Below are positions 3,170 through 64,000 of a stretch of DNA of 64,000 nucleotides, piece after piece (position 1 is the first letter of the stretch; each line of letters begins with the position of its first letter). A program made the translations under genes and the position numbers. Source of the stretch: Gekko japonicus (Eukaryota); contig NW_015165838.1 of assembly GCF_001447785.1 (NCBI RefSeq), forward strand, positions 160,857-224,856, given 5' to 3'. Below the pieces are notes generated by a model that was not told the DNA's origin, ran no database searches, and saw only the letters and a list, made by a program, of their open reading frames with translations.

Positions 3170-3939
3170 GTAAAAACAGTGTCCTACCACTCCACTAAGC
3201 CCTCCTCCATTTTAAGTGGCTCTTCTACATGAGGTGCCCACTGTAATGCAGAGTTCCAAAAGTATTTGCTGTAGGCAGCACCATCTTGTGCAAGATGATT
3301 ATCCCCAAGATCAATGACATCTCTCTGGTATTTATGCTGCGTATCCTGATCTGTATTATGAAGGCATTTCTCTCAGTAAAACACCCAATGGACCCAGGCC
3401 CTGGAAGCTGCACATTTTGGAACTCAACACAGGATTGCTAGGTTTGGGTTATTCCATACTTCTTTACTACTTATGAGCATTTATTGACATAGCAGTTTAA
3501 TGGTTATGAAGAGACAACTAGTAATCCATAAGTGAGTTTCCTAATTATGTATCCTGAGTCAGGCATGGGAAAACAACATTGGAAGAGGTTTAAAGGTATA
3601 GTCAATACCACTTTAAAAATTATGAAACAACTACTCCTTTTTTGTATCCCAAAAGAAATACAATTCTTAGAAAGTTGTCGGCAGCAACTTTCCGCATATC
3701 AGACTATTTTATGACATATTGAAGGAGACAATAACCCAGACCACCCAAAAGGTATTGGCCATTACAGATGACAACATCTGAAAATGACTTTTTGATATCC
3801 CAGTGATGTACCGTAATAACATAAAGGGAACTAACATTGTTACAGCTCCTCTCAAAAACAGCAAATGTGAACATTACCAGTATATTTTCTAAAAAATAAT
3901 GTGAGAAGGCACAAGATATACATAAAGAGTTTTAATTAC

Positions 3940-4005
3940 CATTCCAAAAAGTAATGCCAGAGTTTCAAAATCAATCCACTCCACTACTTTGACCAGGCTT
4001 GGCTT
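3940..4005 (-). CDS. OCA2: OCA2 exon 11 equivalent: KPSLVKVVEWIDFETLALLFGM
   Basis: 66 nt, ttgcag| and |gtaatt, phase 0/0. Conserved VVEWIDFETLALLFGM. Confidence 0.97.
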
Positions 4006-4531
4006 CTGCAATTAAAGACTGCAATTATCATTTAATCCCAAGGATCTCCTAACTAGTCTTTAGCTTTGAAAATACAAACTCAATTTTTACAAGGAAATTT
4101 CCTTTTTATGAAATTAATTAGTGTTTTTGCAAGGAGACCAAAGGAGGCACTTTTCTATGGACACCATAAAATGCTGACAACTTTAAGGGTTCGTTTATGG
4201 CATACCTACACTAAGCAATTTTTATTCTGTTGTTATTGTTCCACCTTTATAAAAATAGATAGAAATTGGATTACTGGTTTAAGGTGCCTTTCTGCTGATA
4301 CAGTAATACTATACAACTTCTTCCATGGACTGTCTGGAAGGAGTTCATAGAAGAAAAATTTCAAAAGGTTAAGGGACAAAGGATAAAAATTTAAGACGTT
4401 TCAAACAAGTAAGTAGCTTTGACAGAAATCTGTCTTTTTGCTGCATAAAACACTTAATATAAGTTTCAGAACACAATAAATAACAAGGAAGAGAAGGAGC
4501 AAAAAGTACATGACTAGAAGAGCACAGTGAT

Positions 4532-4836
4532 CCAACTTGTCAAATAAGAACCAGCTCTGTTTATCTGGGATGGGTGACTGTAGGCCAGTTTTTGTTCATC
4601 CAGACTCTTGTGTCAAAACGGAAGGGAGGGAAAATTATAAAAAAAAATAAAAGGAAAAAAGGAAAATAAAATGCCAAATAAAGACCAACTTGTCAAATAA
4701 GAACCAGCTCTGTATATCTGCGATGGGTGACTGTAGACCAGTTTTTTTCATCCAGACTCTTGTGTCAAAAAGGAAGGGAGGGAAAATTATAAAAAAAAAT
4801 AAAAGGAAAAAAGGAAAATAAAATGCCAAATAAAGA
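4532..4836 (+). repeat. Tandem duplication, two units of ~153 bp
   Basis: ccaacttgtcaaataagaaccagctctg...aaatgccaaataaaga occurs at 4532-4684 and 4685-4836 with a few substitutions. Confidence 0.95.
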
Positions 4837-4903
4837 AAAAAATCCATTTCTTATTGAGGGAATGGGACCAAGTCGGGATATTTAAGAGTCCAATCAGATG
4901 GCT

Positions 4904-5500
4904 CTTTAGATCCGTGTGAGGCACGATTGCCTCACGGATCTAAAGGTAATGTCCAGACACAAACATCTGGGAAATGTCCCTCTTCCGTGGGCATCCCGTT
5001 TTGCCGCACTTTGAAGCCGTACTTAAAAGATAGCACTTTAAATGTGGGGTTTTCGGTTACCTGCGGGACAACTGAGGACTTTCACCCGTCTGACCTTTCC
5101 ACCAGCGTGCAATCCTCCCGTCGGGGTGGTCTGATGTCAGACCATCCCAAGCGGGCACCATTTTTAAAAAATCTCTTCACATGGGCAGATCAACAAGGAC
5201 ATGCTGTCACGTCTATGTGCATGCGCAAAATGTTTTTTTAAAAAAAAAACACCACGCACCTCCTTCAAGGATGCACTGTGACACCTATACGCATGCACAA
5301 AAAGTTTTTTTTTTTTTTTAAAAAAAAACCCACCACGCATGCCTCCTTCAGTGGACGCCATCTTGACAATCCACAACGGAGGCAGCGCGCGGTAAGGCGA
5401 TTCACCAGGGTGATGTCTGGTCGTGCTATGACGTATTTAAAAGTTTGGGATAAAATTCAAGGTGGCATAATGACGGGATTAACTGCTCGTCTAAGTGCTA
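4904..5500. mobile_element. CpG-rich MITE-like insertion with a terminal hairpin and an internal ~70-bp duplication
   Basis: CpG-rich block in AT-rich intron. Hairpin at 4904-4945 and a repeated unit at about 5205-5350. Family not identified. Confidence 0.4.
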
Positions 5501-5622
5501 AAGTTCAGACCCTATTGTTACTAAAGTTGTTCTATTGCTGCCATTTCCTTGACTGAGTATCAATGCTGAGAACCAACTAAAAAGCTATCAAAACAAAAAG
5601 AATCAAGACTTTTTGTACTTAC

Positions 5623-5694
5623 ATCTCCAATTACAGCCAGTGTAGCTAAGGCAGCCAGGGACCCCAGCATCGCAGCTAAAGTTCTATGAACAAT
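5623..5694 (-). CDS. OCA2: OCA2 exon 10 equivalent: IVHRTLAAMLGSLAALATLAVIGD
   Basis: 72 nt, ttgtag| and |gtaagt, phase 0/0. Near-identical to the human peptide. Confidence 0.97.
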
Positions 5695-6254
5695 CTACAA
5701 CAAAAAACACATGGAGTTCCAAAGTTCAGTTGGACAATCAGCCTTGCCACCTTCCAACCCTTTTCCAATATTACATAAAGATGCTTCTCTGTTAGACTCT
5801 TGAACCTTTGTTAGATCAGAACAGCAGCAAACCAGGCTGCCTGAGGAAAATGGAGGCCTTCAAGGCAAATATTGACAAACACCTACTAGGATGCCTGTAA
5901 TTCTTATAGCTGATGTTTCTTTTTGCTAAAACTGAACTCTCACTTGGCTTGCTTACTGGGCCTGTTAATAGCTTTTAAAATAGTTATTCAACACTCGGGG
6001 GAAGTGTTCTTTAAGATGACAGAAGTCATCTTAAATAAATAATAATGCACAAGAAAAAAATAAAATGATCACATAACTTTAAACAGCAATAGCTGTTTTA
6101 ATGAGCGAAGACAGTAACAGAATACTTAAGACCCAGGAAACTTTGAATTAAAAAGAATTCTTACTTTTCAGACCAATTTAAAGTCTAAACTGCAGAATAG
6201 TGGTGACTGGGTTCCCTAGACTTCCTTGTACTGGACGGCATGATTGTTAATCAG

Positions 6255-6614
6255 CAGGAGTCTTTTCCTAGAAAAAGAGCTGCAGGAGCTCATTAGCATA
6301 TGGTATGCTAATGAGCTACTTGGCTATTAGCATAATAGCTCATTAGCATATGCAACACCCCCTGACATCACTCCCACTGATGTCAGAAGGGGAAGCAAAA
6401 GGGGGGAAGGCATATTCAAAAGCCTCCCCTTCCCTTCCCCAAGCCGGGGGGGGGGGGAAGCGAAGAGAGAAGAGGCTCCAGCGCTGGCCCGGGGAGGCAG
6501 CAGGGGGCCGCAGCGCAGGGAGCTGGGGGTGGGGCCTGCCACCACTGCCATTTGTTCCAGCGCCTGGGCTCCCAGAGCGGTGCTCCAGCACGCTCTGGCC
6601 CCAAAAGACCCCTG
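6255..6614. mobile_element. hAT MITE with 8-bp TSD TTAATCAG
   Basis: Terminal inverted repeats (TIRs) CAGGAGTCTTTT / AAAAGACCCCTG; TSD at 6247-6254 and 6615-6622. Internal CTCATTAGCATA palindromes are shared with the copy at 40051. Confidence 0.88.
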
Positions 6615-7189
6615 TTAATCAGAAAAAAACATAATAAAAGCATTGTTCAGAATGCAAATAGAGAAGAGGACTGCCACTATATTTAGGAGGAGGAAAGGGC
6701 TTGGAAAAGCCAAAATTCTGACTGAGGAAAACCTGAACAAGTATTACATGCTAATACAAAAGCAGTTTCTGATAAAGGACAATTCTAAATGGGGGTTCTT
6801 AGTAGGAAACAAAAGAGGGGGAAATGGGCAATACTGCAGAAGTGTTGGGTAGCTAAAACTGAACACTGAAATGTGAAGTATGAGCTTCTTCAATTCAAAG
6901 GAAGGCTTTTCCACATCTCATTCCCCCCCCCATCTAGCTCTGAATTGCTTAGGTTTATCCCCTGATTTCTCCGTGCATTTTTGTGTCTTGAGGCCACTTT
7001 TACTCTGATCTTTCTGGATGCCAATTCTGAGTTGGCTTTTTCCTTGTGCATAATGTTTCTGTTTTCTTCGTCCGTCCCACTCTCACCCACCTCCAGCCCA
7101 CTTTTTGATAACTGGACAGTCATTGTCAACACACTCTCTCCCTTCCCCCCTTCCCATCCTGAGGATGAGTAGATTTGTTTTCATTTTTT

Positions 7190-7455
7190 TTAAATGAAAA
7201 GCACACTAAAATATTGATATTTTACATAATAACGGTAGGTTTAGCAGGTTCTCTGAATTCTCACCTTTCAGTTTGTTTTTTAAAAAGTAAGTCTCTAGCC
7301 ATTTTCCTAGAGAAGATATGCCCTTTTCTTTATCTCTGTGAGGCAAGCAGATAAAGACTTACTTTTTTAAAACGAAAGTTGAGAATACAGAGAACCTGCT
7401 GAATACATCATTACAATGCTATACTGATGTATCAATATTTTAGTGCCTTTTTAAA
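7190..7455. repeat. Old imperfect palindrome, probably a decayed MITE
   Basis: Left arm cactaaaatattgata...agcaggttctctg...ttaaaaagtaagtct pairs with right arm agacttactttttaa...cagagaacctgct...tatcaatattttagtg. Confidence 0.7.
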
Positions 7456-8984
7456 GAAACGTAGCCATTATATTGATATATCAATATAAACATACACAAA
7501 AAAATAGAAGGGGGGATGCTGTGACACAACTAATGATACCACCGATGACTACAGCACCCTTCCTTGAAAATCATGATTATTTAATGCATATACAGAAAAA
7601 AATAAACTGCCTCCATAACTGAAAATGCAGAGGGAGGGCAGACGTGCCAAAGAACCATGCCCAAACCCATTCCAATGGTTGTGGATCAAGTACCAAGAAA
7701 ATCAGAAGCCAAGTTTGTGGAAAAGCCCAATGACAGGAAAGAGGAGTGACCTGAATTTATCGGTCACACCTACAGGGAAGTGTGTGGTCTGTCCCCATAC
7801 CAGAAGAATCTGCATCTTCCCGCATTAAGGGATATAGTTATTCTCTCCACTGGGCAAATCTTGAAGCAGTGGGGAGAAGTTACACCAGTCCTACTTCCTG
7901 CCTCACAGCTTCTGAAGCTGTATGAAGTTGCTCAATCCTCAAAATAATATTTTCCTTCCAAACATCTCAAAGCACATTCAAAAGGTGAAAGAAATATGTT
8001 AATGTCTTGGAGAGTGTATTAAATTGTTACATTCAGGATCCTGTCTTATTTCTCACAGTGGGAATTTAAAAACAGAACTTCAGTTTGGTTGCAACTCGAT
8101 AACCCTGCTGCAGATGTTCCTGTCATAAAACAAAGATAACACATTTCTTGGAATTTTCATTACTTTGCCACATTTTGTAAATATCTGAGAAGGAGGAAGA
8201 TAAAATGTCTCAATAAATTGTATGGTGTTTAAATGCCCTGGAACTGACTTGCTTACACTATGTCCAGGAGATGGTTTCCACAAATTGAATCATTTTTGAC
8301 CATGAAATATGTAATCTCATTAAACAAAATGCAATTGTGGAAGGTTTAATATAATTGAAAGAACTTACTGTTATCAGTGAATTGCCCTCAAATGAGTTAG
8401 AATGTTTAAAATATTACTCAGAGGAAAGTCAGATTTATTTCTGATCAAAGTATCATTTCACAAAATCTCATTCACTGCTAATTTCATTAGAATGGCACTG
8501 GCTGAACAGAAAGTAATAAAAGCAACCTCTGGGCTCCACTCTGTTTACTGCTATCATATCAGGAAGAAGTCTGAGCAGCATTATGTTAGAACACGGGTCA
8601 TGCCCCAAAAAAATAAGTAAATAAAACAAGCAGTTTCATGTAAAAAGAAGGGTAAGGAAGGAATTGAATTTCATACAGAAAAGGCTGAACTCTTCCCACT
8701 CTCCCCCCCCTCCATCCCCAGAGCCCCCACACTGTCTCACAGCTGTTTTTTACCCTCACATCTCCAATTAAAAGAATCCCAGACCTGGGAACAAGGTTTC
8801 TGTGCCTGAGGCCCTAGAATTATACTGTTGTCAAAGGACACAATATTGGGCTAGGTGGATTAAATATCTGACTTTGTATAGGGAGATGGATGTGAAGGGT
8901 ATGATTGATAAGCCAACTGACAGGCCTCAAGGGGAAGGATATGGCAATTGGAGATCAAGTTGCAATTTATTGCAATACTACTTA

Positions 8985-46809: not shown

Positions 46810-47001
46810 CTCATTTTATGTAAATTGAATTTGCCATGGAAGGTGTCCAAGACTTCACATTTCTCGGAGGAGGAAGCAGATCTGGACAAGCTTGTTCTTT
46901 TACTTCCTGGCGGAAACCTTTGCTCAGACTCAGCTGAACTGTTTTCCCAGGAATCATCATCTGTGGTGAAATCTGTGTTATGAACAGCCATGCATCTTAC
47001 C
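46810..47001 (-). CDS. OCA2: OCA2 exon 4 equivalent: VRCMAVHNTDFTTDDDSWENSSAESEQRFPPGSKRTSLSRSASSSEKCEVLDTFHGKFNLHKM(R)
   Basis: 192 nt, ttttacag| and |gtatgt, phase 2/2. Resembles human EFITAEESWEDSSADWERR...SASSEKGDLLD. Confidence 0.94.
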
Positions 47002-48740: not shown

Positions 48741-48839
48741 CCATTTTCTTCAGAGGAAACTTTCAACAGAGGTGTTCTTTCTGTAAAAGAGCTGTCTTTA
48801 GATCTTGTGCAGAAGAATTTGGGCAAACTAAAATGGTAC
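48741..48839 (-). CDS. OCA2: OCA2 exon equivalent to human exon 3: (R)YHFSLPKFFCTRSKDSSFTERTPLLKVSSEEN(G)
   Basis: 99-nt exon with ttttaag| acceptor and |gtagga donor, phase 2/2. The peptide resembles human SHSSLPQ...RSKDSCFTENTPLL and includes the acidic dileucine sorting motif. Confidence 0.93.
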
Positions 48840-50540
48840 CTTAAAAAAAAAAGAAAACAAATAGTTAATCTTAATTGTAATCACCTCCTAAAACTATATA
48901 CTAAAGAGAGTATATTAACTCATTAGATATTAGATTAATTAAGTAACTTCAGGGGATGTGCAACTGCTGGGAAGCAAAATTATGTCAGTTGTTCACTTTG
49001 GACTTCTCTTTATGATTTTAGGAAAACTGAGGTTGCCAGGACACTGTCCAGTACCTCAAGTGCTTTGGGGAGCAAGGCAAGGGACAGACAATGTCACACA
49101 ACACATTAAAATTAAATTAAATTTAAAAATTAATTAATTAATTCCAAAAACCCAGCTTTTTTTGGCCAATCATCCATCAGTGGCCTGGTTCTGACTGGAC
49201 ATCTGATTAGATATTGGACTGCTTGACATCTGATCTCTCTGTTTACATGGTATTTTATATGATATGATATTATGTGCAAATTGCTACTTTAACATTATTT
49301 TAATTGTTGTACGCCCCCTGAGCCCATTTGAGGAAGGCGGTATATAAATCTAATTAAATAAATGTCCTATCGTTAACAGCCTTGCTCAGGTCTTGCAAAC
49401 TGAAGGCCATGGATTGGTTTATTGAATCAATCCATTTTATGTTGGGTCTTTCTCTTTTCCTGCTATCTTCCACTTTTCCTAGCACTTTTTAAAGTTACCC
49501 CTCCTCATTTTGGAAGGCAAACAGCCCCCTGTCCTTTCCCACAGCTCAGACAATGCTTGGAATAAACATTGCTTATTCCTTCTAAGCTGTTTTGGGCAAG
49601 GGACTGATGTAGGAGGGGGGTGCTTTCAAGATGTTTGCGATGGGGTCCCACTAAAGCTCCAAATTCTTTAGAATATGAATTAAGAGAGATGTCTGCTAGT
49701 ATTCTATGGTTAACAGCTCTTTCTTTTGGCAATGTCTGCACCTACACAGAAGTTACTGTTAAAGTTTGGGGAAATTATTCTCCTCCTGGTTTAAAAATCA
49801 CCCTGTTCCGCAACTGTGGCTGTTTACCTTAATTTGTAGAATCTAAACTGTAGCCAGGGCTGTCCCTGACTTGTAGATTGTTGCCCATTCTCCAAATTTA
49901 TGCAACTCCCCATCCAGAGATTATACCTCTTGCTTATGAAGCAGTAGTGTCAACTCAGTATGACTTGTCAGTTTACAAAACTAGAATAATCCTGTCATTC
50001 ACACTATAGCATTGCCTTGATGGTTTTATGTCCTATTCAAAACACTTTTTTTTCATTGCAGCCACTAACAGGGTCAGGCACATTGAAAAACATCTTATAA
50101 TTATGGTAACATAAATAGACCAGTTTTAAAAACAGTTACCTGGTCCTGTTTTGTGGCTCAGAATAATTCTTCCTCCCATGTATTCCAGCACTGAGAGCAT
50201 TTTGTCCTAGAGCACTGCTTGTCACCAAGGGCCAAACTAGACACGACAGCATCAATGGGTCCAACACCATGGGCATGACGTTAATTTCAAGGAAAACCCT
50301 GAAAGTTGTCATGCCTCTTTAGGAATTGCTGAAAACTCTATGGTAAAAACCATAGGGCTGTAGGTGTTTCCTACGGAGGCCTAAGGTCACTTCCAGGAAA
50401 ACCCTGTAAGTGATGCCAGTCCTTTCCTGGAAGTGATGTCATGCAATTGCTGATGGCTGCCACCCATGCCCCCCCCATCTCCTGCTGGTTGCCAGCATTT
50501 TAAAATCACTTAAAAATGGCAGCAGCATCTGCGGATTAAA

Positions 50541-50862
50541 TAGGGTTGCCAAGTCCAAAAGACAAGCCAGCAGGGGACTTACTAGGATGCTCCTGCAGAG
50601 GGGAGGGAAAACACACACTGTGCCTACATCACCTCCAGGTAACATACGCACATCGGTGATGGCAGGGGGTGGCACACTGGTTTTTGGGCAAAAATCCAGA
50701 GCATTGCCCCACGATGTCACTGACATGCCTACATCATTTCCAGGTGACATAGGCACATCAAGTTTAGGTTGGTAACGCTCTCCCACCGGTCAGTTGGCTG
50801 GCGCAAGGGGAGCACTGGAAACTGGCAGTTCCCCCATGCACCAGGGGGACCTGGCAACCCTA
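50541..50862. mobile_element. hAT (Blackjack-like) MITE with TSD ggattaaa / ggatcaaa
   Basis: Perfect TAGGGTTGCCA / TGGCAACCCTA termini and a 7/8 TSD match. Confidence 0.85.
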
Positions 50863-51149
50863 GGATCAAACCTGTGCATACCCTCAAATAGTTTGACCCA
50901 CAGTCTTTTATTTTTCCTAAGCTACCCCTCTTCCATTAAGCTACCCCTCTAACTCTCAGAAGATACCAATCAGCCCAAAGGAATGTTGGCTGTTTGATAT
51001 AAACTGCACACTCATCAAATGTTGTAGATACTTTCCCTGCAACTATTCTAAAAATACTTTAAAAGTAGGTCGATAAACAATTACTATAATTTTTGCTGTC
51101 ATTTATATTTAAAAGTAGGACTATTGCCTTGTGGCATAAAACCCAGTGT

Positions 51150-53824
51150 GTATTTATATTTTTATTTATTTTTGGATTTATATCCCGCCCTCCCAGAGTT
51201 AAAACAGATAACACAGCCTAAAACAGTAAAACAATATAATACAACAACAAAGTGTCAGTGCTCCATTTATCACAAGATGGGGTAGATCTTAATCCAATGG
51301 CAATTGATCCCGCAACCTGTCATCCCCTCTCCTTCCAGGGTCACCTCACACCCAGATGGAACCACATATTAGTGGTAGTGGTGCGATGCTGCATACATAT
51401 CGGTGGTGGAATTGTAGTGGCAGCGGCTCCTACTCAAAAGCTTGGTGGAAGAGCTCCATCTTACAGGCCCTGCGGAACTGAGAAAGGTCCCGCAGGGCCC
51501 GGATCTCCTCTGGGAGCTCCTTCCATCAGGTAGGAGCTGCCACCGAAAATGCCCTGGCTCTAGTAACAGCAAATTTAATATCCCTGGGGCCTGGAATTTC
51601 CAGGAGATGTTGACTCCTCGAACGTAGTGCCCTTGTGGGGGAACATATGGGGAAAGGTGGTCCCATAGGTAAGCCGGACCCTGGCCATACAGAGCTTAAA
51701 GGTAAGAACCAGGACTTTGAAGCGGATCCAGTACGCTATTGGTAGCCAGTGCAGCGCTTTCAGCACAGGCCGAATGTGATCCCTCCTAGAGAGACCCATC
51801 AACAGCCTGGCTGCAGCATTCTGCACTAGCTGCAGCTTCCGGATCCGCGACAAAGGCAGCCCCAAGTGGAGAGCGTTACAGTAGTCTAACCTCGAGGTGA
51901 CCATCGCATGGATCACTGTGGCCAGGTCATCGCGGTCAAGGAAGGGGACCAACTGCCGAGCCAGCCGAAGATGATAAAAGTCCGACTTGGCAGTGGCTGC
52001 CACCTGGGCTTCCATTGTTAGAGAGGAGTCCAGGAGCACACCCAAACTCCTAACCTCCGACGATGGCACCAAAGGCACCCCATCGAAGGTCGGGAGTGGG
52101 AGCCCCAGCCCTAAACTGGTCCGACTCAGGCCCAGGACCTCCGTCTTTGCTGGGTTTAGTTTCAACCGGCTCAGTCTGAGCCACCCAGCCACAGCCTGTA
52201 ATGCCCGATGAAGGTCATCCGGGGCAGAGCTCGACTGGCCGCCTAACATCAGATAGAGCTGGGTGTCATCCGCATATTGATGACACCTAAGCCCACAATT
52301 CCGGGCAATCTGGGCAAGGGGGCGCATGTAGATGTTAAACAACATCGGGGACAGCACAGCCCCCTGTGGCACCCCACATTCAAGGGGATGTCTCCGGGAC
52401 CGCTGGTCCCCTATCGCCACCCTTTGTCCCCGACCTTGGAGAAAAGAGGCAACCCATTGAAGGGCAAGCCCCTGAATCCCCACATCGGCGAGGTGGTGGG
52501 TCAGCAACTGGTGGTCGACCATGTCAAACGCAGATCTAACAGCACCAGTGCTGCCACACCACCCCGATCCAAATGCCTACGGAGGTTGTCAGTCAGGGCG
52601 ACCAGCACCGTCTCTGTCCTATGACCCGGGCAGAAGCCGGTCTGGAAGGGATCGAGGACAGAAGTATCATCCAGAAAGCCCTGTAGCTGTAATGCCACTG
52701 CTCTCTCAATAAGTTTGCCCGAATAGGGCAAATTGGACACCGGCCAATAGTTGGCCAATTCGGTTGGGTCCAAAGATGGCTTTTTCAAGAGAGGGTGGAC
52801 CATCGCTCAGGGAATCATCCCTCCAAGAGGGACATATTGATAATCTCCCGGAGGACACCTCGAAATCCCTCATGGCATGCTTTTATGAGCCAGGAGGGGC
52901 ACGGATCAAGGTGGCATGTGGTTGGACGTACAGATACGAGCAATCTGTCAACTTCCTCCAGGCTGAGCAGGTCAAAACACTCTAAACCCGGCACCAACGG
53001 CGTGCGAGGGGCCTCAAGTTCACTCACTGTTTCAATTGTGGCGGGGAGGTCACGACAGAGCGCCACAAATGCCTCGCAGCCAATATCCAATTCCCTAACA
53101 TTTTGCCTGCCCTGTGGCAGAGCTGTCAAAGACCGAATTATACTAAATAATTGGGCCAGACATGAGCTACCAGATGCAATCGAGGTTGCATTGAAGTCTC
53201 CCTTTGCGGCTTTGACTGCCATCTCATAGGCTTTCATAAGCATCCTATAGGATGTTCTTGACGCCTCATCACGAGCTCGACGCCACCGTCTCTCTAGCCA
53301 TCTCAGTTCTCGCTTCAGCTCTCACAGCTCCTGGATATACCAAGGCGCTTGCCTAACACGAGTGCAGAGAGGGTGCCTGGGAGCAATCTCGTCGATGGCT
53401 GAGGAGAGCCGGACATGCCAGTCCTCCACCAGCTCATCCAACGAGCCGCCAGGGGGCCTCGGATCCCACAGGGCCATCTGGAATCGCATTGGATCCATTT
53501 GGTGCCGCGAGCGAGCAGAAATCCGCTCGCCGCCTAAACAAGGTCGGGGTGGAACATTCAGATGAGCCTTCAGGGCCAGATGGTCCGACCATGGCATTGC
53601 CTCTACAGTGATCCGATCCACCATCACACACAACCCCGCAAAGATCAAATCGAGCATATGACCGTCCCGATGCGTGGGAGCTGAGATGAATTGAAAGAGT
53701 CCCAGTGCCACCATGGACGACACCAGGTCCGTAGCCCAGCTGGAGGTCACGTCCTTGGCATGGACGTTGAAATCACCCAAGACAATCAGCCTAGGGTGCT
53801 CCAACGCCCAGCCTGATACGGCCT
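51150..53824 (-). mobile_element. 5'-truncated L2-clade LINE, ~2.7 kb, ORF2 broken by frameshifts
   Basis: APE endonuclease motifs IVLGDFNVH and WSDH; RT motifs PLLKKPSLDP..NYWPVSNLP, GVPQGAVLSPMLFNIY, QYADDTQLY, SRLDYCNAL and LHWLPI. Ends in an (AATA)n-type tail, with a possible CCAGTGT TSD. Confidence 0.93.
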
Positions 53825-55064
53825 CCAGTGTTGATCTGGACTATTTTGTTGGTGCTGTAACTTTGGCTTGTTACAAAAGTGTTCCCTCACCATGGAAGCA
53901 GCTGCAAATTACATGGGAATGAACAAGAATTGTACCCACATGTCCCATCCTTGTGTTGTTCACTGCTACACACCCATCCCCCATCATATCTACACAGATG
54001 TACAGACAAGATGGAGGCTGCACAAGGCCCACCCACAGCTCAGCACCCCTCCCCTTGCTTAACAGTCAGGAAAAGAAAATTTGATTTAAAGGGCCAAAAG
54101 GGGGAGGAAATATGGCATTTAGTTCCACTCCTCCCTACGGTGGGCAGCCAAACACTGGCAACTGGCAGGAAGTATATGGGGGTGGGAATATGCAAATATG
54201 CATCAGTTCAATGTTGTAACATCACTTCTGGTACAACCACTGCATTGCACCACCATGATGCCTTCACTTCTGGGTTTACACCACAAGTGGTGTCGCAGCA
54301 TTGGAATATGTATTCCACCACCACCACCATTTTTACTGCTCTACTGAGCAGCAGCAAGCAAATTAGACTGCCAGTGGGAGGTCTCTTGCCATAACAGGAT
54401 TCCCTCTCTAAGTCTGTATCTATTAACCCAATGAGGCACCTCTAGACACCATGGCGCTGGAACTTCCGGTCTAAGCATTTTGCCGCTCAGACACATCTCG
54501 TCTCGCTCGGATGGAGACGCGCCAAGACCCGGCTGACAGGAGGGGTTCGAGTTTGTCCCGGACCCCCCCCCCCAGGGTTTCTATAGAAGACCCCCAGCCT
54601 GGGGAGCTGAGGAGAGCCTCTTCCAAGGGGATGCCCAAGGAATTGAGGCTCACCTTCTTCCCCGATAGGTACCATCGCCACGGAGCCAGCATGGCGCCTA
54701 GAGATGACTGCCGAAGCAAGTGATAACAACCAACTCATTAAAAAGACTTCCAAAAGATCTCCAAGGCTACAAACTGTGAGTTAAGCAAAGCTCAGGTGAA
54801 AAATAAGTGAATGGAGCCTTGGTAATAATTGGAAGCGCCTAAGTTTGAAGTGCAGGGGGAGGAGATTTCAAGCCCCCCCCCCAATAGGAGTAAACTGTAA
54901 AAAACAGTTTTAAAGTGAAAATAAAGAGACTTTGAGCCAAACCAAGCACATTAGAAGTTAAGTGAACGCAAAAGCTGCTAAAATATATGAAGCGGAATTA
55001 AAACATATAACTTTTGCTTTGTTTTGGAAAACTTACTTCTTGTTGCTATTATGGCTGGGAGAGG

Positions 55065-56186
55065 ATGGAGAGCGCCGGAAAAAAACTGGTGACCGAAAAA
55101 AAACATACCAACAACTCCCTCCCAGAACCAGGAAGCATCTACAGACCTTTCTTTGCTGTTAGCAAATGCACTGCGTCCTCTAATGGAACAGATGACTACT
55201 CTTAACACCAAACTAGACAATGTGCAAATACAGCTAAAGCAAATGGACAAGAGAACTACAGCAACTGAGAAAACATTGAACAAGATGGAAAAACAGACTG
55301 AGAGTATTAATAAAAGAGTGGATGAAGCAGAGAAGGAGAGATCCTCGGATAAAACGCAACTAATACAGCTCCAGCTGGAAAGATCAATGTATGTTCTACG
55401 TTTCCATGGAATACCTAAGGATAAGAATGAGGATTTAAAGGAACTCTTGGTGGTTGCCTTGGCCCCACTAATGGATTACAAACAAGAAGACTTAATTAAG
55501 GAAATGGATGTGGCGTACAGGACTTATCCGGACTTTATAAAGAAAAATAAACTCCCAGGGGAAACTTATTTAAAATTTATGAAACGATCAACCAGGGAAC
55601 TGGTGCTAAAGTCAACAATGGGGAAATCCTTTAAAATCAAGAATGAAGAGATAAAAATTTTGAAAGACATCCCATTCGAAGTAAGAAAAAAGAGGAAACT
55701 ATGCAGGATGCTTACTCTCTCGCTGCAAAAAAGGGAATAGCGTATAGATGGCTATTTCCAGAATGGTTGAGTTTTAATTACCAGGATAAAAAATATATAC
55801 CGTATTTTTTGGACCATAAGACGCACTTTTTCTTTCAAAAAAAGTGGGAGGAAAAGTGAGTGCGTCTTATGGACTGAAGGTTCAGAATATTTTTTCCCTG
55901 TTTTCCTCCTTTAAAAACTAGGTGCGTCTTAAGGTCAGGTGCGTCTTATGGTCCGAAAAATACGGTAATTGACTCTGTTCCAAAAGCAGAAAGATTTATG
56001 GATCAAATGCTTAATGTAAAAAAGAAGCAGAAGGAAAAGAATTTAAAAATGGATGCAGAGGAGCAAGAAGAAGATGAGGAGTCCTACTCACAGGACTCAA
56101 CAAGCCAAACTTCCTCGTCATCAGAATCATCTGAATTGGAAAAAAGGAGAGGCCGCTCCCAAATTGCAGAAAATGAAGAAATCTAA
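55065..56186 (+). pseudogene. L1 ORF1p-like reading frame (coiled coil, RRM, CTD, acidic tail), broken by frameshifts and a MITE
   Basis: Heptad region, then LRFHGIP...EDLKELL...MDVAYR...KFMKRSTRELVLK...IKILKDIPFEVRKKRK. After a frameshift it reads IAYRWLFPEWLSFNYQDKKY and continues beyond the MITE as IIDSVPKAERFMDQM. Confidence 0.8.
55800..55965. mobile_element. Tc1/mariner-type MITE, 166 bp, TA TSD
   Basis: TIRs CCGTATTTTTTGGACCATAAGACGCAC / GTGCGTCTTATGGTCCGAAAAATACGG flanked by TA. Confidence 0.92.
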
Positions 56187-58877
56187 GAAGAAAAGACTCT
56201 AAAACTAAAGCATGAGTGCTAAGGGCAGTAAGTGTGCCAAGCTAATAACTTTATACTATTTATAATCAAACTAATCTCTGTATAACCTGTACTAATAGGT
56301 TAAAAAGGTCTATTTTAAAGCTTTTTTAGATCGTGATTTGTATTAGTCTTTACCCCTTCCCCATATCCAGTAGGAGATTTAGAACAAAATGGTAGTTTTT
56401 CCTCCCCTTATCCAGTAGATTATATGTATCTAGACTTCCCTGACCCATTTCCCATAGTAATAGTGATAGGGCATTACTACTCCTTTCCCCATTCCATATA
56501 TGTAGTGTGTAGAAAATGCAAAAATAAAAAAATTCCCCTTCGGGGGGCCAAAAAAAAAAATAGACACCATGGCGCTTGCTGACACCTTTCCTGGTGCCCA
56601 CCATGTTTTTAGGAAGAGGGGAAGTCCAAGCAGGACTTTTGTTCAGCAAGTTTTCTGATTGGCTGTGCAGTTGTTTTTTTAAAGCATTGCTTCAGCAGCA
56701 GCTGCAATCACAAGACAAAGATCTTCAGTGTGTGACTGAAGGTAAGTTGTGTGTATGCAAGGAAATATTTAAACAATTTATTTATTTTCAAAGGCATCCT
56801 GTAAAACAGAACTTCTGCTGGAAATATCAGAGAGTGACAATTAGAGTTAGGCATAATCTCACTCCCTCATATTTTGAAGCTGGCTCCTCCTCTTGTGTCT
56901 GTGTCTACCACCCTGTGTCAGAATTCCAAAGGTACCTGCAGGCTCAAAAAGGTTGAGGACCTCTGTATTAACCACATGATCATTGCACGGCCTAGTTTAA
57001 AAGAGATGGGAGAGAGATGGAAGGAAGAACTGTACAATTTCTGATCAAAGAAACCCTAGTGTGAGCACCTCTGCCCTCCGCTGTCATGTCCCACTCATCT
57101 GGGTTCCCCAGGCCAAATCAGGAGGAAAGACAATGGTTGCAGCACCTCTGGCCTCTCCAATCCCCAGGGAGCACTCAACCTTCTGTTTAGGCACAGTGTC
57201 TTCCCCTTTCCCTCCTCAGTCAGGTCCTGACACCCTTCTTTTATACCCTGCCCCAAAACTCTGGCTCTCTACCCCCTTTGGTACTGCCTGGACCAATTCC
57301 CTGTCCTGTGGGCAGGACATTCCTACCTTCCCTGTCCCCTTTCTTTCCCCCCACTTCCCCGAGTCTTGGTCTGGCTTGGCCAGAGTTGATCTCTTCCTCC
57401 TTGCTCCGATCCAGGTGGTCAAGATTGGCAGCCTCTGGATAACTCTGCCCAGCCAAGGAAGATTCTCTCCTCTTATCTTAAAAAGCTAGGATCTCTCCAG
57501 TGAAGGCTGATTGACATCATCAGCCAGCAAGAGGAGGCTGTTGCAGGTGCCCACTGCTGCTTGAGGCCAGTATTGAATCTGGCAGCAAGGCATGACTCCA
57601 GCTCAAACCTGTTCCCAGCCCTTGCAGTGGCTCCAAGGCTGAGGGTGGCGATGGGGTTCTAGGCCCCACATGGCCAGCCCAGTCTTGGGTGTCAGTGGCA
57701 GCTGGCCCAGGACAGCCATCTGGTGGCAACAGGGTTCCCTGCTCCCTCATAGATGACTCCCAGTGAGGTAAGGCTGGCAGACCTGGGATTGTTGGTGCAG
57801 CAGGGTCCAGGGGTGGCAGAATGGGGATTTGGACATGGTTCAGGAGAAGATTGGGAAGTAAAAGCGTCCCTGGAACAAGCCAAGCTGAATGGTCTGTGCA
57901 GGGGTCTATGCAGAGGCCTCTGAGCTAAGCAGCACCAGCAAAAGGCATTAGATCACCTCTCACTTTTCCCCCATAACCTGGTAGTAGTGCAGAAGGAGAT
58001 ATCCAGTGAGCTGACACCCATTACCATTGCTACTTAACAGTCTGAGCCAAGTGGCCTATGAGGCATTGGCAAAGTTGTTTGGTTTGACTCCTGCCGGCCT
58101 GTTCCTGGCCACCAGGAGTCCTCTAGAGCAGCGACTCACTGGGAAATGGTTGGATTGGGGTTGGGGAAATGAGGGGTGCAGGAACTTTCTTATGCACTCT
58201 CATTCCAAATGTGTTCAATTTTGGGAGGGAGACAAGCTGGCTTCCCAATTGTGGGGGTGGGGAGAGATGTTCAAAATCAAGACTCATTTTATTTCATTAC
58301 ACATTCTTAAATCAGAAAACATTTTTGTAGCATTTCAATATTCAACACAGAATATTTCAACACACACCCCCATGCATAAATAGTGCACTTGTGCAATTCT
58401 ACAAAGGATATTCTTGGTTATTCTGCCAAGACCCATAACTGAGGGTGGTTGATCAGAACAACCAGGAACAAGACTAAAATCAGACATTAAGTACTCTTTT
58501 TCACCCATAGAAGCTACTACTGTCAGTCAAGTCTGTGATGAGCATTTAACATACATCTGACATATACAACAAAGTCAGCCCTTTCTATCTCTGGGGTCAG
58601 GAAAGTCAAGGAAAGCTGGGTTAAGCCAGCGTGACTCACAGAATCAAGGTAGCCAGTTTCTGATCTATTTATCTGATCTATCTTATCTATTTAAAATTTG
58701 ATAGTGACTGCTGTAAAGTATAAACATTCCCAGTAGGCAAAAGTCTCATGAGGCAAAGTCATGTCCAGTGAAGGCCACACACAGCACATAGCAGCAGCCT
58801 GAAGCTTCCTGGGAGCAGAACAGAACCAACGTTTCAACCATATAGGCTAATCACTTTAGATATTAAAGTAGTACAGA

Positions 58878-59100
58878 CAGGGCTATTTTGGGGCAGGAAC
58901 GCACAGGAACGGAGATCTGGCTGGCTTCAGAGTTGGCCACGCCCACTACAGCCAAAACCTCTGCATACGTGGCTACAGAGGGAAGACCTGGAGAGCTACC
59001 CCCCCCCGACAATTCCAAGGTGGGCAGGCTGGGGGGGGCTGGAAGGATCGGGGAGGCATTTAAATTCCTCCCTGTGCCTTCCCCAGTCTGTGCAAGGGCC
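58878..59100. mobile_element. Truncated hAT MITE, same family as 40051
   Basis: Left end cagggctattttggggcaggaacgcacaggaacggag is identical to 40051. Confidence 0.8.
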
Positions 59101-61573
59101 GGCTTGCCCGGCAGCAAACTGATTCGATGTGATCTTTGTCCTCTACATTTTGTATTTATTTATGGGACAACCAGAGAATTGGCAACACAGGCATTAAGTG
59201 CTACAAAATGTGCTGTTTATAAAACATTCATACCCAACATTCTTCTCTTCCCAAGTTGTCCTGTCAGTCACCAAGTAAATTCCCAGTTGTCAGGTCATGA
59301 CATCCATACACATACCTAGTACATATTATAGGCTGTCGGTTTTCCAGCCATGCCATTACCATGGTGGTGGGTGTTTTCTTCCCCTCAGACTGAATGGTCT
59401 AAGGACATATCACATATTATCCCTCATGAATGAAACGTTCTGAAAGCCCTAGAGCATCAATTAGACCCAAGAGAGCAATTTGGTTAACTAGACAATTTCC
59501 ATCTATCAAAAATTCTGAAGACTGACTGTCATGCCACCAAGAACACTTTGAGTAACCACTCAGAGCGCTTATAGGGATGGACAAAGAAGAGTGCAAATGT
59601 AGATCTGCCAGTGTCACGAGCTTTATTCAGAAAGTCCTTACAACAAACTCCAAAAGGGGAAACTAGCAATAAACCAGCTGAGATGAAATGCACTCAAAGG
59701 CACATTATTTATTATTACCTCGCATGTTCTAATCTGAAATAATGGGTCCAAGATCTGAAGTCAAACAGATAATGTTCCCTGACAAATGGGATGCACACAA
59801 GTCTGAAATGTACCCTGTGTTGATTTTCTTTTAACTGGCTTGGCTGTCTTTTTTCAAGTTAATGCAGCATATGTCTGGTAGAGAGGCAAAGTACTGCCTA
59901 TAGATTAAATGCATAATATCTGTGTAAACTGCCCATATTCCTTGCTGTATGGAGATATTCTGTTTTCTATCTAAATGGACTAGAACAAATATTTCTGGCT
60001 CTATAATCTTTTTTAATACTGTTATACAACTATGAACAGATTTCTAACGGCAAACTCCTGGATACATGTTGCTATTAACATGTGATAAAAACAGGAGTTC
60101 TTTAATAGCTTGGGAGGATGGAGTATAGAATTTACCATTTAAAATAATTGTTTTCTGTAAGTTTACCTGACAGGGGTGGGGCACAATTACTGCAGTTTAT
60201 AAAGCTTTAACTGACCCAAGTAAAAAGACAACAATTAAAAATACTAGAACTAAGAAAGGGCCTTTAAAAATGCTTTTGCTGTGGTATATTTAAGACAAGA
60301 GGCTGGGGGGGGCTGGAAGGATCGGGGAGGCATTTAAATTCCTCCCTGTGCCTTCCCCAGTCTGTGCAAGGGCCGGCAAACTAAGCAGCAAACTGATTCG
60401 ATGTGATCTTTGTCCTCTACATTTTGTATTTATTTATGGGACAACCAGAGAATTGGCAACACAGGCATTAAGTGCTACAAAATGTGCTGTTTATAAAACA
60501 TTCATACCCAACATTCTTCTCTTCCCAAGTTGTCCTGTCAGTCACCAAGTAAATTCCCAGTTGTCAGGTCATGACATCCATACACATACCTAGTACATAT
60601 TATAGGCTGTCGGTTTTCCAGCCATGCCATTACCATGGTGGTGGGTGTTTTCTTCCCCTCAGACTGAATGGTCTAAGGACATATCACATATTATCCCTCA
60701 TGAATGAAACGTTCTGAAAGCCCTAGAGCATCAATTAGACCCAAGAGAGCAATTTGGTTAACTAGACAATTTCCATCTATCAAAAATTCTGAAGACTGAC
60801 TGTCATGCCACCAAGAACACTTTGAGTAACCACTCAGAGCGCTTATAGGGATGGACAAAGAAGAGTGCAAATGTAGATCTGCCAGTGTCACGAGCTTTAT
60901 TCAGAAAGTCCTTACAACAAACTCCAAAAGGGGAAACTAGCAATAAACCAGCTGAGATGAAATGCACTCAAAGGCACATTATTTATTATTACCTCGCATG
61001 TTCTAATTGAAATAATGGGTCCAAGATCTGAAGTCAAACAGATAATGTTCCCTGACAAATGGGATGCACACAAGTCTGAAATGTACCCTGTGTTGATTTT
61101 CTTTTAACTGGCTTGGCTGTCTTTTTTCAAGTTAATGCAGCATATGTCTGGTAGAGAGGGAAAGTACTGCCTATAGATTAAATGCATAATATCTGTGTAA
61201 ACTGCCCATATTCCTTGCTGTATGGAGATATTCTGTTTTCTATCTAAATGGACTAGAACAAATATTTCTGGCTCTATAATCTTTTTTAATACTGTTATAC
61301 AACTATGAACAGATTTCTAACGGCAAACTCCTGGATACATGTTGCTATTAACATGTGATAAAAACAGGAGTTCTTTAATAGCTTGGGAGGATGGAGTATA
61401 GAATTTACCATTTAAAATAATTGTTTTCTGTAAGTTTACCTGACAGGGGTGGGGCACAATTACTGCAGTTTATAAAGCTTTAACTGACCCAAGTAAAAAG
61501 ACAACAATTAAAAATACTAGAACTAAGAAAGGGCCTTTAAAAATGCTTTTGCTGTGGTATATTTAAGACAAGA
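59027..61573 (+). repeat. Near-identical tandem duplication, two units of ~1,274 bp
   Basis: Copy 1 is 59027-60300 and copy 2 is 60301-61573. Duplicated ORFs in the track are offset by 1274 (59417 vs 60691). Confidence 0.97.
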
Positions 61574-63639
61574 GTCATGAAAAGAAAAGGGATTCTCTAG
61601 TTGAAAGAATACAAGCTTTCAATCCCTACTGTGTTTTGTTCAGCATTTGTAGTATCTATTCTGTACCCTCTCTTGTAAACTGAAGCAAACCCAGCAATAG
61701 TATGCCCATGGCAAAAGCTCCTACCATTCTGTAAAATGTCTATTTTAAAAAAAATCCAAACAACTTTGAAAATCTGCAGAACATTTTCCTCATAACGAAC
61801 ACCAGATCATCTGATAAATAGAGGCCTGTTCCGCTATTACTTCTTCTCTGCTTTCCCCTACCCCACCTTGGCTTTACAATTCCTTTCATCAGGCATATTC
61901 ATTAAAATCAGGTTCACGGTTTTCAGTCTCAGGGTTGCATGATGAAACAGCTGTCAATAAAACCTTAAAGAGGATTGGTGCTCACATGTCCCTGGCATGG
62001 CTGAAGGGGTAAAGTTGCTCCTATCACTCCTAGAAAGATTAAAGCCTGGATCTATCGGAGGTTGCTTATTTAAAAAAAACTGCAAAGAGCACATTACATA
62101 AATCAACTATTGTGGGTGAAGTAATCATCCTTAAGAATATAGAAAAATGCATTAATTCTGGCTTATGTAGGATACTGTGGACTTATCTACTGCATAACAC
62201 ATCCTACACAAGAAACAAATATAATACCTTGCCTCACCTAATCAGAAAAATTGCCTCTGTGGATGTACTATTCAGGGCCAGCTCTATCAGCAGGTCACCT
62301 CAAGAAGCAGATTTAAGGGGCAGCAACCTGCCATCCTGCCTTTCACCAGCCTTCAACTGCCACTTAGCCAGCTATCTGTCCACCTACGGTACCTAAGCGA
62401 CAAAAGCCAAATGAGATCATCATCCTTACTTTCTTGCTCACCCCAGACTTTCCCCGAAATAGAACATCTGGCCATGCATGCTAGTTCCCAAACTCCCCAA
62501 ATATTTCTTCTTCTCATGAGACTTTGGAGATGCCATTTCGGTTCCCAGGAAATGTTGGTCAGACTCTTGCAAGAAGTAGTATCCTTGCAAGTGTTCAGGA
62601 AACTTGGCATGCGCAGCTTGCTGTGCTTTTTTAAAGAATCACTGGGATAGTGAAGAGGTAAAGAGGATTATCTCGTCCAGCTACCGAGCACCACAGTAAG
62701 GTGGGAACCGCGAGAAATGTTGAAGTGCAGTGATGGTGGGGACTGCTGTCTCAGGAAGAAAAACGTCTTGATGCCACTGATACTATACACACTATACAAT
62801 AGCTGTGCTGGGTCAGATCAAAGTCTAGCATTCTCTCCCTAGCATTATCTAGCCAAACGTCACTAGGAAGCTCACAAACACAGAATGATGGAGAGATTCA
62901 GGTTGGAGTTCATCATTACAAGCATCCTGAAACTGAAGGTATAGAACCTCTGGACACAGGAGTTCCATTCTTAGCTACTATAATTAATAGAAATAAATTG
63001 CATTAACTCTGCATTATGGTACATACAAATGTATTCCTTCATTACACATAGTGTGAAGTATTTTCTCTCATTTGTCTTGAACATACTGCTAATCTCCCTC
63101 AACCATACTCTAGCATTCTGAGAGGAAATATTACTTCTATTCCTTCACTCTCTTCACACAAGTCATAATTTTCTAAACCACTTGTAGTAAAAGAGTTGTC
63201 AGTATTTAAAGGCTGTGTCCATTTAGAGAGAGGGGGTTACAACATGGAGCAGCTGTCAGACTTCTTTATATCCTAATAAGACAGAACTGTTGTTGAAATG
63301 TTTCTACAACTGGGCTGACACAATTGGGCTGAGGGGTCTAACAGTAACTTTACAACCAGTTTGGACAGTTAGCACATTAACTACTTTTGTTCCTTTAAGT
63401 TTACCCTCAGACATTAAAATGAAACCAAGGTGGTGCCAAAATTGTACCATGTGACACATGCTACAACATGGCTGCCTGAGGACTTGGTAAATCTCCACCC
63501 TAGTGCTGTACATGCCTTCAGCAGTTTGGACTGAACTGGATATTTACCGCATGATTGGGGGAACCACATGAACAGACAACCTGGAGCCTTTCTGAAGTTG
63601 CAGCCACATCATCCTCATTAGCTATGACAAGTGGGGAGA

Positions 63640-63960
63640 TGGCTGAAGTTGAATCCATCCAAGATGGAGGCCATGTGGCTGGGAAAGACTGAAATGCTAA
63701 CAGGAGGGTCACTCTTGAGACTCAATGGTGTCCAGTTGACAGCTGTAGACTCTCTAAAGCGCCTCGGGATGTAGTTGGATTCTGCACTATCATTGGATAA
63801 ACACGTGTCCATGGTAGCATGGTCAAGTGTTTTTTCACATGCGCCAGGCCTGCCAGCTGGCTCCTTATTTACAGCAACAGAGGCGGCAGCAACACTCCCA
63901 GCTACCCACATCAGTGATGGCAGTGGCTCTCACGGAATCACACTAGGTGTCCCAGCTACA
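63640..63960 (+). mobile_element. Old L2-like fragment
   Basis: Degenerate SLKRLGM*LDSALSLDKHVSMVA resembles the VRSLGVLLDSSLTMEAQV stretch of the L2 at 51-54 kb. Confidence 0.55.
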
Positions 63961-64000
63961 TACATCCATTTCCCTTAGGAATGCCAGCTCCAGGATGGAA

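What the first reader, a model, noticed from the sequence alone, without database searches (positions are those of the whole stretch)
54443..56576. A complete ORF1-only 'half-L1' retroelement in a reptile intron
Seen in the sequence: a 16-bp TSD (TAGACACCATGGCGCT) brackets a unit with an L1-like GGAACTTCCGG CpG-rich 5' end, ~600 nt of 5' UTR, one ORF1p-like frame with an added acidic/Ser-rich tail, a ~370-nt 3' UTR, AATAAA and poly(A). Without the nested MITE it is ~1.9 kb and has no endonuclease or RT sequence. Established: ORF1-only non-autonomous L1 derivatives (HAL1) are known mainly from mammals. Inference: both ends and the TSD are intact, so this probably retrotransposed as a unit using ORF2p in trans. 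It may represent an independent squamate half-L1 family that supplies its own RNA chaperone. I cannot tell whether it is already catalogued.
Basis: partly seen in the sequence, partly recalled or inferred. Interest (0 to 1): 0.72.

Follow-up and report, generated by a model that had tools for sequence, protein, structure and literature searches.

The report
Gecko half-LINE-1 family with tail hairpin
This is a dead copy, in an intron of a gecko pigment gene, of a jumping-gene family that carries only LINE-1's RNA-binding protein, has hundreds of copies and several sister families, and likely borrows the copying enzyme of full LINE-1s, possibly hooking it with a small hairpin just before its poly(A) tail.

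Summary
Confirmed and larger than reported. The 16-bp TSD brackets a 1.93-kb unit (plus a younger MITE) lying antisense in an OCA2 intron of a gecko. Its protein is LINE-1 ORF1p (profile E 2e-15, fold match to human ORF1p). It is a family: 322 exact 5' ends; 88 insertions fetched, 44 of 69 with their own TSD, none with ORF2 inside. ORF1 was under purifying selection on the source lineage (0.27x neutral) and decays neutrally after insertion (0.88x). At least five sister ORF1-only groups share the 5' motif; the four families put on a tree form one clade (100/99) apart from the autonomous L1 ORF1s sampled; no parent L1 was found. New feature: a hairpin, mostly a UNCG-type loop, between AATAAA and poly(A) in 80 of 88 parsed ends of four families, in 0 of 24 autonomous L1s; one subfamily lacks it. 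Best reading: HAL1-type element, ORF1p in cis, L1 ORF2p in trans (inferred). Repbase/Dfam could not be checked; nine paper searches found no reptile HAL1. The scan noted such elements before on other DNA of this genome and in rays.

The parts
54443..54458 (+). 5' target-site duplication (16 bp)
   Evidence: identical to 56561-56576
54459..55050 (+). 5' UTR, 592 nt, starting GGAACTTCCGG (family GGGACTTCCGG); likely internal RNA polymerase II promoter
   Evidence: same start in 63 of 88 fetched insertions; 322 exact matches of the 26-nt start, control 0; like the lizard clade-1 L1 start GACTTCCGGTG (PMC5381506). Promoter activity is inferred
55051..56202 (+). L1 ORF1 (coiled coil, RRM, CTD, acidic/Ser-rich and basic tail), dead in this copy: single-base indels near 55079, 55096, 55726, 56142 and a MITE insertion
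   Evidence: naturally open sister copies L038, L052, L032; profile to human ORF1p E 2e-15; model pLDDT 87.4; Foldseek E 1.8e-10
55798..55967 (.). younger MITE with 29-nt inverted arms including TA ends, inserted after retrotransposition
   Evidence: absent from all other fetched copies; 40 of 40 scored places 97-100% identical
56203..56549 (+). 3' UTR with imperfect C-rich repeats, no ORF2 remnant detected
   Evidence: (D6)
56523..56528 (+). polyadenylation signal AATAAA
56534..56547 (+). 3'-terminal hairpin CCCC-TTCG-GGGG between the signal and the poly(A)
   Evidence: z only -0.87 against shuffles for this copy alone, the case rests on position and recurrence across families
56550..56560 (+). 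poly(A) tail (11 A)
56561..56576 (+). 3' target-site duplication
48841..64000 (-). host context: part of an about 18-kb intron of OCA2 (runs on beyond the window); the element is antisense to the gene

Best explanation
The unit is a dead copy of a multi-copy, ORF1-only (HAL1-type) LINE-1 derivative of geckos, whose source copies likely made their own ORF1p in cis and likely borrowed ORF2p from intact L1s to insert. Shown: unit structure, many independent insertions with own TSDs and A tails, ORF1p identity, absence of ORF2 in every fetched copy, purifying selection on the source lineage and neutral decay after insertion, sister families, the terminal hairpin. Inferred: (1) transcription by RNA polymerase II from the GACTTCCGG 5' end to AATAAA; (2) ORF1p coats its own RNA, which a polymerase II transcript appears to need; (3) L1 ORF2p nicks a pyrimidine|purine site and reverse-transcribes from the poly(A); (4) least certain (about 0.45 on its own), the hairpin next to the poly(A) helps the RNA capture ORF2p in competition with L1's own hairpin-less RNA, as proposed for the Alu stem-loop.
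For: Family: 40 of 40 scored places at 91-100% for the 3' part and for ORF1, 150 of 150 by protein, 322 exact 5' ends. 88 distinct insertions fetched; exact TSD of 9-20 bp in 44 of 69 with both ends in hand, control 43 of 4692; target Y|A-rich like the 9 autonomous L1 TSDs found among 24; 5'-truncated copies and one copy with an internal inversion and TSD (L043). No ORF2 inside any copy; control: ORF2 hits in 19 of 20 Transposase_22 loci. ORF1p: 38B (15 of 118 rows hit Transposase_22), 46, 53. Selection: internal branches 100 N/173 S, terminal 860/517, Fisher p 5e-15, seen in coiled coil, RRM and CTD; neutral N/S from UTRs 2.16, 20 young copies 314/166 (0.88x, p 0.19), internal 0.27x, p 8e-27. 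Hairpin: A 48 of 54, B 11 of 12, C 11 of 11, D 10 of 11, autonomous L1 0 of 24 parsed ends; three different stem sequences; loop T-N-C-G with N = T, C, A or G by family. Literature: polymerase II Alu needs ORF1p (PMC2666806, abstract); stem-loop beside poly(A) is bound by human ORF2p and may explain Alu outcompeting the L1 3' UTR (PMC10830416, passages).
Against: No parent or partner L1 was found: best ORF1 identity of family A to autonomous L1s was 38% or less (17 ORF1s) and 34% or less for L1 ORF1s of 40 further loci, and no 3'-end similarity was seen, so the enzyme donor is inferred from insertion hallmarks only. The autonomous sample was seeded by one Pfam model and one endonuclease and missed at least one distant L1 clade (seen by chance in L256). 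One A subfamily (5 of 5 parsed: L083, L084, L086, L087, L088) has no hairpin yet 4 of them have TSDs, so the hairpin is not required. Stems are mostly homopolymer runs, with no compensatory pairs counted; this copy's fold is not better than shuffles (z -0.87). In the human assay, unpairing the stem gave only a modest drop. Terminal branches over all 61 copies are at 0.77x neutral, partly because 40 loci were picked by protein similarity. RNA reads on the family come in both directions with empty flanks and do not show a full-length transcript.
Confidence: 0.85

Rival explanations
1. The copies are short products of a hidden autonomous L1: its transcripts are often cut at a strong poly(A) signal after ORF1, and the selection on ORF1 is that of the full-length master.
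For: Premature polyadenylation of L1 is described (PMC5381506 passage). The assembly is fragmented (191,500 contigs) and the L1 sample is incomplete.
Against: 0 of 88 family-A insertions, 0 of 36 B-D loci and 0 of 25 ORF1-bearing elements sampled by 5' motif alone have ORF2 after ORF1 inside the unit, including 40 fetched with over 4 kb downstream; the four families form a clade with no autonomous member among 24 and 14 (7 shared) L1 ORF1s; subfamilies succeed each other with the short structure kept.
Confidence: 0.04
2. Same element, but moved by a non-L1 LINE (CR1, L2 or RTE type) that recognises the 3' hairpin as a stringent tail.
For: A 3' stem-loop is the usual recognition signal of stringent LINEs (recalled). 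No L1 partner was found. Other LINE clades are present, one 600 bp away.
Against: Pure A tails after AATAAA, 9-20 bp TSDs and a Y|A-rich target like the genome's L1s, an internal inversion (L043); the hairpin sequence differs among families and is missing in one subfamily; none of the 30 best matches to the 3' 591 nt has RT inside the unit.
Confidence: 0.07
3. ORF1 is conserved because the host uses it (for example to poison L1 particles), and the copies are processed pseudogenes of such a gene.
For: L1TD1 is a domesticated ORF1 in mammals (PMC4161310, search listing). Sixteen of 61 aligned copies are open through codon 270.
Against: The open copies are enriched by protein-based picking (14 of the 16); unbiased young copies decay neutrally; the lineage keeps a transposon 5' end and has split into at least six groups; no single intron-bearing or near-identical master gene was seen.
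Confidence: 0.03
4. A one-off deletion of ORF2 at this locus, or a chance TSD.
For: None found.
Confidence: 0.01

Closest known systems
HAL1 (half-L1) of mammals (Smit 1999; Bao and Jurka 2010, not held; seen through passages of PMC5753468, PMC5786205, PMC3627910)
   Same: L1-derived, encodes ORF1p only, multi-copy, coding capacity maintained over long times (29-44 Myr in guinea pig), cis ORF1p plus trans ORF2p proposed.
   Different: Squamate host; ORF1 falls among squamate L1 ORF1s and its model is 17% identical to human ORF1p, so a separate origin is inferred; at least six groups about 32-48% identical in protein between the four measured that look like one origin rather than several; terminal hairpin between AATAAA and poly(A), not mentioned in the passages read.
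Lizard clade-1 L1 (PMC5381506, passages)
   Same: 5' start GACTTCCGGT, ORF1 with coiled coil-RRM-CTD, C-rich and T-rich repeats in the 3' UTR, AATAAA and poly(A).
   Different: No ORF2, shorter 5' UTR (0.6 against about 1.3 kb), signal-to-tail spacer about 21 nt with hairpin against a median of 6 nt without.
HeT-A (Jockey clade) and Ag-Sponge (CR1 clade) (PMC5786205, passage)
   Same: ORF1-only non-autonomous LINE derivatives.
   Different: Other LINE clades and hosts; this family is dispersed and L1-derived.
Alu as ORF2p substrate (PMC10830416, passages)
   Same: Stem-loop next to a poly(A) tract on an RNA copied in trans.
   Different: Alu is a non-coding polymerase III RNA with a long stem; here a 4-8 bp stem on a protein-coding, likely polymerase II RNA; binding by a gecko ORF2p is untested.

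Membership tests
HAL1-type (ORF1-only L1 derivative) | encodes an L1-clade ORF1p | tested here: met
   Pfam alone misses it
HAL1-type (ORF1-only L1 derivative) | no ORF2 in the unit | tested here: met
   0 of 88 insertions; control 19 of 20
HAL1-type (ORF1-only L1 derivative) | amplified as a unit: many copies, own TSDs, A tails | tested here: met
HAL1-type (ORF1-only L1 derivative) | ORF1 coding capacity maintained by selection on source copies | tested here: met
HAL1-type (ORF1-only L1 derivative) | bipartite: 5' and 3' parts traceable to a parent L1 | tested here: inconclusive
   5' terminal motif matches lizard L1 and two gecko L1s; no parent by ORF1 or 3' UTR among 60 L1 loci
HAL1-type (ORF1-only L1 derivative) | mobilised by L1 ORF2p in trans | not testable with these tools
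   only hallmarks: TSD length, target bases, A tail, inversion
mammalian HAL1 lineages by descent | ORF1 derived from mammalian L1 | tested here: inconclusive
   no mammalian HAL1 sequence was in the trees; named nearest relatives are squamate, so descent from mammalian HAL1 is unlikely
autonomous L1 | ORF2 with endonuclease and RT | tested here: not met
domesticated ORF1 gene (L1TD1-like) | single conserved host locus with intact frame | tested here: not met
   this copy is broken and one of hundreds; synteny across species was not testable
a family already in Repbase or Dfam | match to a catalogued consensus | not testable with these tools
   no repeat library is offered

The most novel reading that the evidence does not exclude
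Geckos carry an old, uncatalogued radiation of ORF1-only retroelements from a single loss of ORF2, as deep in ORF1 as the genome's sampled autonomous L1s and with over two thousand 5'-intact copies, that outlived its parent L1 and evolved an Alu-like trick: a UNCG-type hairpin placed right before the poly(A) that lets a protein-coding polymerase II RNA take ORF2p from L1.
Probability: 0.3. Interest if true: 0.8.

Novelty: new variant of a known kind. Interest (0 to 1): 0.6.

Why it matters
ORF1-only L1 derivatives are described, in the papers that could be read here, from mammals. A separate, diverse and abundant lineage in a lizard shows that this way of life is a general outcome of L1 biology, and the clean contrast between selected source lineages and neutrally decaying copies is natural evidence that ORF1p is needed in cis. 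The hairpin, present in the parasites and absent in the host L1s, makes an open question testable with a 14-nt change: how a non-L1 RNA overcomes L1's preference for its own transcript. Because Pfam misses this ORF1, such copies are easily misannotated (relatives are named 'apolipoprotein A-IV-like' or 'myosin-6-like'). The insertion in the OCA2 intron itself shows no sign of an effect.

Tried and rejected
Pfam and single-sequence PDB searches gave only coiled-coil noise, including haemagglutinin HA2, rejected. The word-index protein search found nothing; the full HMMER search found 336. The single-sequence fold was poor (pLDDT 51.5) and was replaced by the alignment-based one. Rfam: 0 matches in the window. 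A first neutral calibration on singletons only was biased against transitions and was redone on all differences. A first hairpin regex hit an internal site in several copies and was replaced; 20 of 74 A ends, 1 of 12 C, 1 of 12 D and 6 of 30 L1 ends could not be parsed and are left out of the hairpin counts. 27 of 88 copies with gapped or partial ORF1, including the window's own, were left out of the tree and selection counts. ORF2 hits beside L016, L020, L024, L028/L044, L050, L060, L081, L092, L100 lie outside the unit, beyond the tail or on the other strand, and were read as nesting; L256 is a complete short element followed by an unrelated L1. An empty-site test with the downstream repeat was inconclusive: other copies match only from the TSD rightwards. 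No RNA holder was listed by the index; laid RNA reads do not separate own transcription from read-through. Contig depth over the element is thousands of times the flank, but the tool says this is no copy number. A three-copy complex job was not run. ESM Atlas was blank for the L250 frame. No supplements were read; those of PMC5381506 (lizard L1 families) and Bao and Jurka 2010 could bear on the parent and on novelty.
Full report
Observation. The sequence shows a 16-bp direct repeat at 54443-54458 and 56561-56576 around a 2102-nt unit that begins GGAACTTCCGG and ends AATAAA, 21 nt of spacer and 11 A. A MITE with 29-nt arms sits at 55798-55967; it has many 97-98% identical copies of its own (40 of 40 scored) and is missing from every other fetched copy of the element, so it came later. 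Without it the unit is about 1934 nt. The reading frame starts at 55051 and stops at 56202 and is broken by four single-base indels and the MITE. Over 746 aligned bases the copy differs by 2.9% from the majority state of its subfamily.

Host context. RNA reads join two minus-strand exons at about 47001 and 48741 (60 reads in run X22); the loose end of the second matches an exon 3.2 kb beyond the window. The first exon is 100% identical to a record named P protein [Gekko japonicus], i.e. OCA2. The element therefore lies antisense in an intron of about 18 kb. A decayed endonuclease-plus-RT LINE at 51575-53840 is on the other strand and outside the TSD.

The protein. Pfam and single-sequence PDB searches see only a coiled coil. 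A naturally open sister copy (L038, 301 aa) finds 336 relatives at E<=0.001; of ten looked up, six carry names, all from squamates. A profile of L038 with 117 of them hits human L1 ORF1p at E 2e-15 across coiled coil, RRM and CTD; 15 of the 118 rows hit Transposase_22; the model has pLDDT 87.4 and its ten best Foldseek matches are human ORF1p; the ESM Atlas agrees (0.94). The acidic tail is shared with the genome's autonomous ORF1s.

It is a family, and ORF2 is absent. DNA and protein searches of the own genome filled their output limits (40 of 40, 40 of 40, 150 of 150) and the 26-nt start has 322 exact matches against 0 for the control. I fetched 88 distinct insertions, picked as best DNA hits (48) or spread over the protein hits (40), so full-length copies are over-represented: 63 have the 5' end; 44 of 69 with both ends in hand have an exact TSD of 9-20 bp against 43 of 4692 mismatched pairs; bases around the cut are pyrimidine then A/G-rich, as in the 9 autonomous L1 TSDs found among 24. 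One copy carries an internal inversion within its TSD (L043), a hallmark of L1 reverse transcription (recalled). A gecko L1 ORF2 (L102; EN and RT confirmed) hits nothing inside any copy, while it hits 19 of 20 loci found with Transposase_22.

Selection. 61 copies with one continuous ORF1 give a ladder of subfamilies. On 12 supported internal branches there are 100 non-synonymous and 173 synonymous changes, on terminal branches 860 and 517 (Fisher p 5e-15), with the contrast in all three domains but not in the N-terminus or tail. With the mutation spectrum of the UTRs, neutral N/S is 2.16; 20 young DNA-picked copies give 314/166 (0.88 of neutral, p 0.19) and the internal branches 0.27 (p 8e-27). 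So the source elements needed the protein and the inserted copies do not.

Sister families. Three other ORF1-only elements were found nested in L1s; each is multi-copy (40 or more scored places each), with TSDs and no ORF2 inside in 36 fetched loci. A search by the 5' motif alone, blind to what follows, gives 1817 matches against 3; of 40 fetched (chosen for varied spacers), 25 carry an ORF1 nearest to these families, none followed by ORF2, and 15 show no ORF1 (gaps, interruptions, or short TSD-bounded derivatives). At 70% DNA identity they fall into six groups with family A. In a 50-row tree families A-D plus one unnamed protein form a clade at 100/99, with stem 0.64, apart from 24 autonomous L1 ORF1s (same result in a quick 77-row tree). 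One origin is thus not ruled out, but not shown: the L1 sample is biased and missed at least one distant clade. No parent L1 was found.

The hairpin. Between AATAAA and the A tail, a stem-loop of at least -3 kcal/mol is predicted in 48 of 54 parsed A ends, 11 of 12 B, 11 of 11 C and 10 of 11 D, and in 0 of 24 autonomous L1 ends, whose spacer is a median 6 nt (unparsed ends listed under Tried and rejected). Stems differ among families (CCCC/GGGG, CCCTG/CAGGG, TTCTCTCC/GGAGAGGG), and where the stem is C/G the loop reads T-N-C-G with N = T, C, A or G by family, plus CpG-decay forms; UNCG is an extra-stable RNA tetraloop (recalled). Against a strict role: one A subfamily lacks it (5 of 5 parsed) and still inserted with TSDs; this copy's fold is not above shuffles (z -0.87; D -2.93, C -2.04); no compensatory changes were counted.

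Mechanism. Shown: anatomy, copies, ORF1p, no ORF2, selection, hairpin pattern. Inferred: polymerase II transcription from the 5' end (which matches the lizard clade-1 L1 start, PMC5381506 passages); ORF1p acting in cis, in line with the report that a polymerase II Alu needs ORF1p (PMC2666806 abstract); L1 ORF2p in trans; and, at about 0.45, hairpin-aided capture of ORF2p, by analogy with the human structure in which a stem-loop beside the poly(A) is held by ORF2p and is proposed to let Alu outcompete the L1 3' UTR, with only a modest drop when unpaired (PMC10830416 passages). A role in cleavage or RNA stability is the main alternative for the hairpin. RNA reads on the family exist but run both ways and prove no full-length transcript.

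Comparison and novelty. It works like mammalian HAL1 and meets the testable HAL1-type features; descent from mammalian HAL1 is unlikely. What I saw of the literature: passages of PMC5753468, PMC5786205, PMC3627910, PMC5381506, PMC10830416; abstract of PMC2666806; listing only for PMC4161310; nothing of Bao and Jurka 2010. Nine searches listed no paper on a reptile ORF1-only L1; only the listings were seen, most subscription papers, Repbase and Dfam are not covered, and no supplements were read. Earlier notes of this scan describe similar elements on other DNA of this genome and in rays; they are unchecked and not used as support. Verdict: a real feature, new variant of a known kind, interest 0.6.

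Noticed in passing
L118:3606-5490, L113:4480-6140, L105:4476-5260 and loci L121-L156: Three further multi-copy ORF1-only families (B, C, D), 32-48% identical in protein to each other and to A, each with own TSDs and its own terminal hairpin.
   Followed up: yes
L218, L222, L225, L230, L245, L250, L253: Elements of about 0.8-1.8 kb (L222 longer, with an N gap) with the same 5' motif and hairpin tail but no ORF1 hit; L245 and L250 share an unrecognised frame of 100-127 aa. Possible ORF-less or re-coded second-level parasites.
   Followed up: partly
L081, L083, L084, L086, L087, L088: The earliest-branching sampled subfamily of A ends like an ordinary L1, without the hairpin; the other A subfamilies share their last 30 nt with family B, which suggests loss or tail exchange.
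   Followed up: partly
window 51575-53840 (-): Decayed LINE with endonuclease and RT pieces, 600 bp upstream and outside the TSD; clade not determined.
   Followed up: partly
window 56561-56955: Old dispersed repeat (71-79% to other copies) at whose left end the element sits; its right end looks like a hAT-type terminus (label recalled).
   Followed up: partly
window 46810-47001 and 48741-48840 (-): Two spliced exons of OCA2.
   Followed up: yes
L102:1325-2428 and 3643-8420: An L1 with a tandem duplication of its 5' UTR-ORF1 part in front of a nearly complete element.
   Followed up: no
L256:3100-4050: An L1 of a distant clade (ORF1 about 22% identical to the others, G-rich spacer before ORF2) not reached by my L1 sampling.
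   Followed up: no
protein P0031, aa 1046-1252: A Varanus record named PRDM9 with many zinc fingers holds an ORF1-like stretch; gene-model artefact or exonised L1.
   Followed up: no
proteins P0003, P0004, P0009: Squamate L1 ORF1 proteins are annotated as 'apolipoprotein A-IV-like' or 'myosin-6-like'.
   Followed up: no
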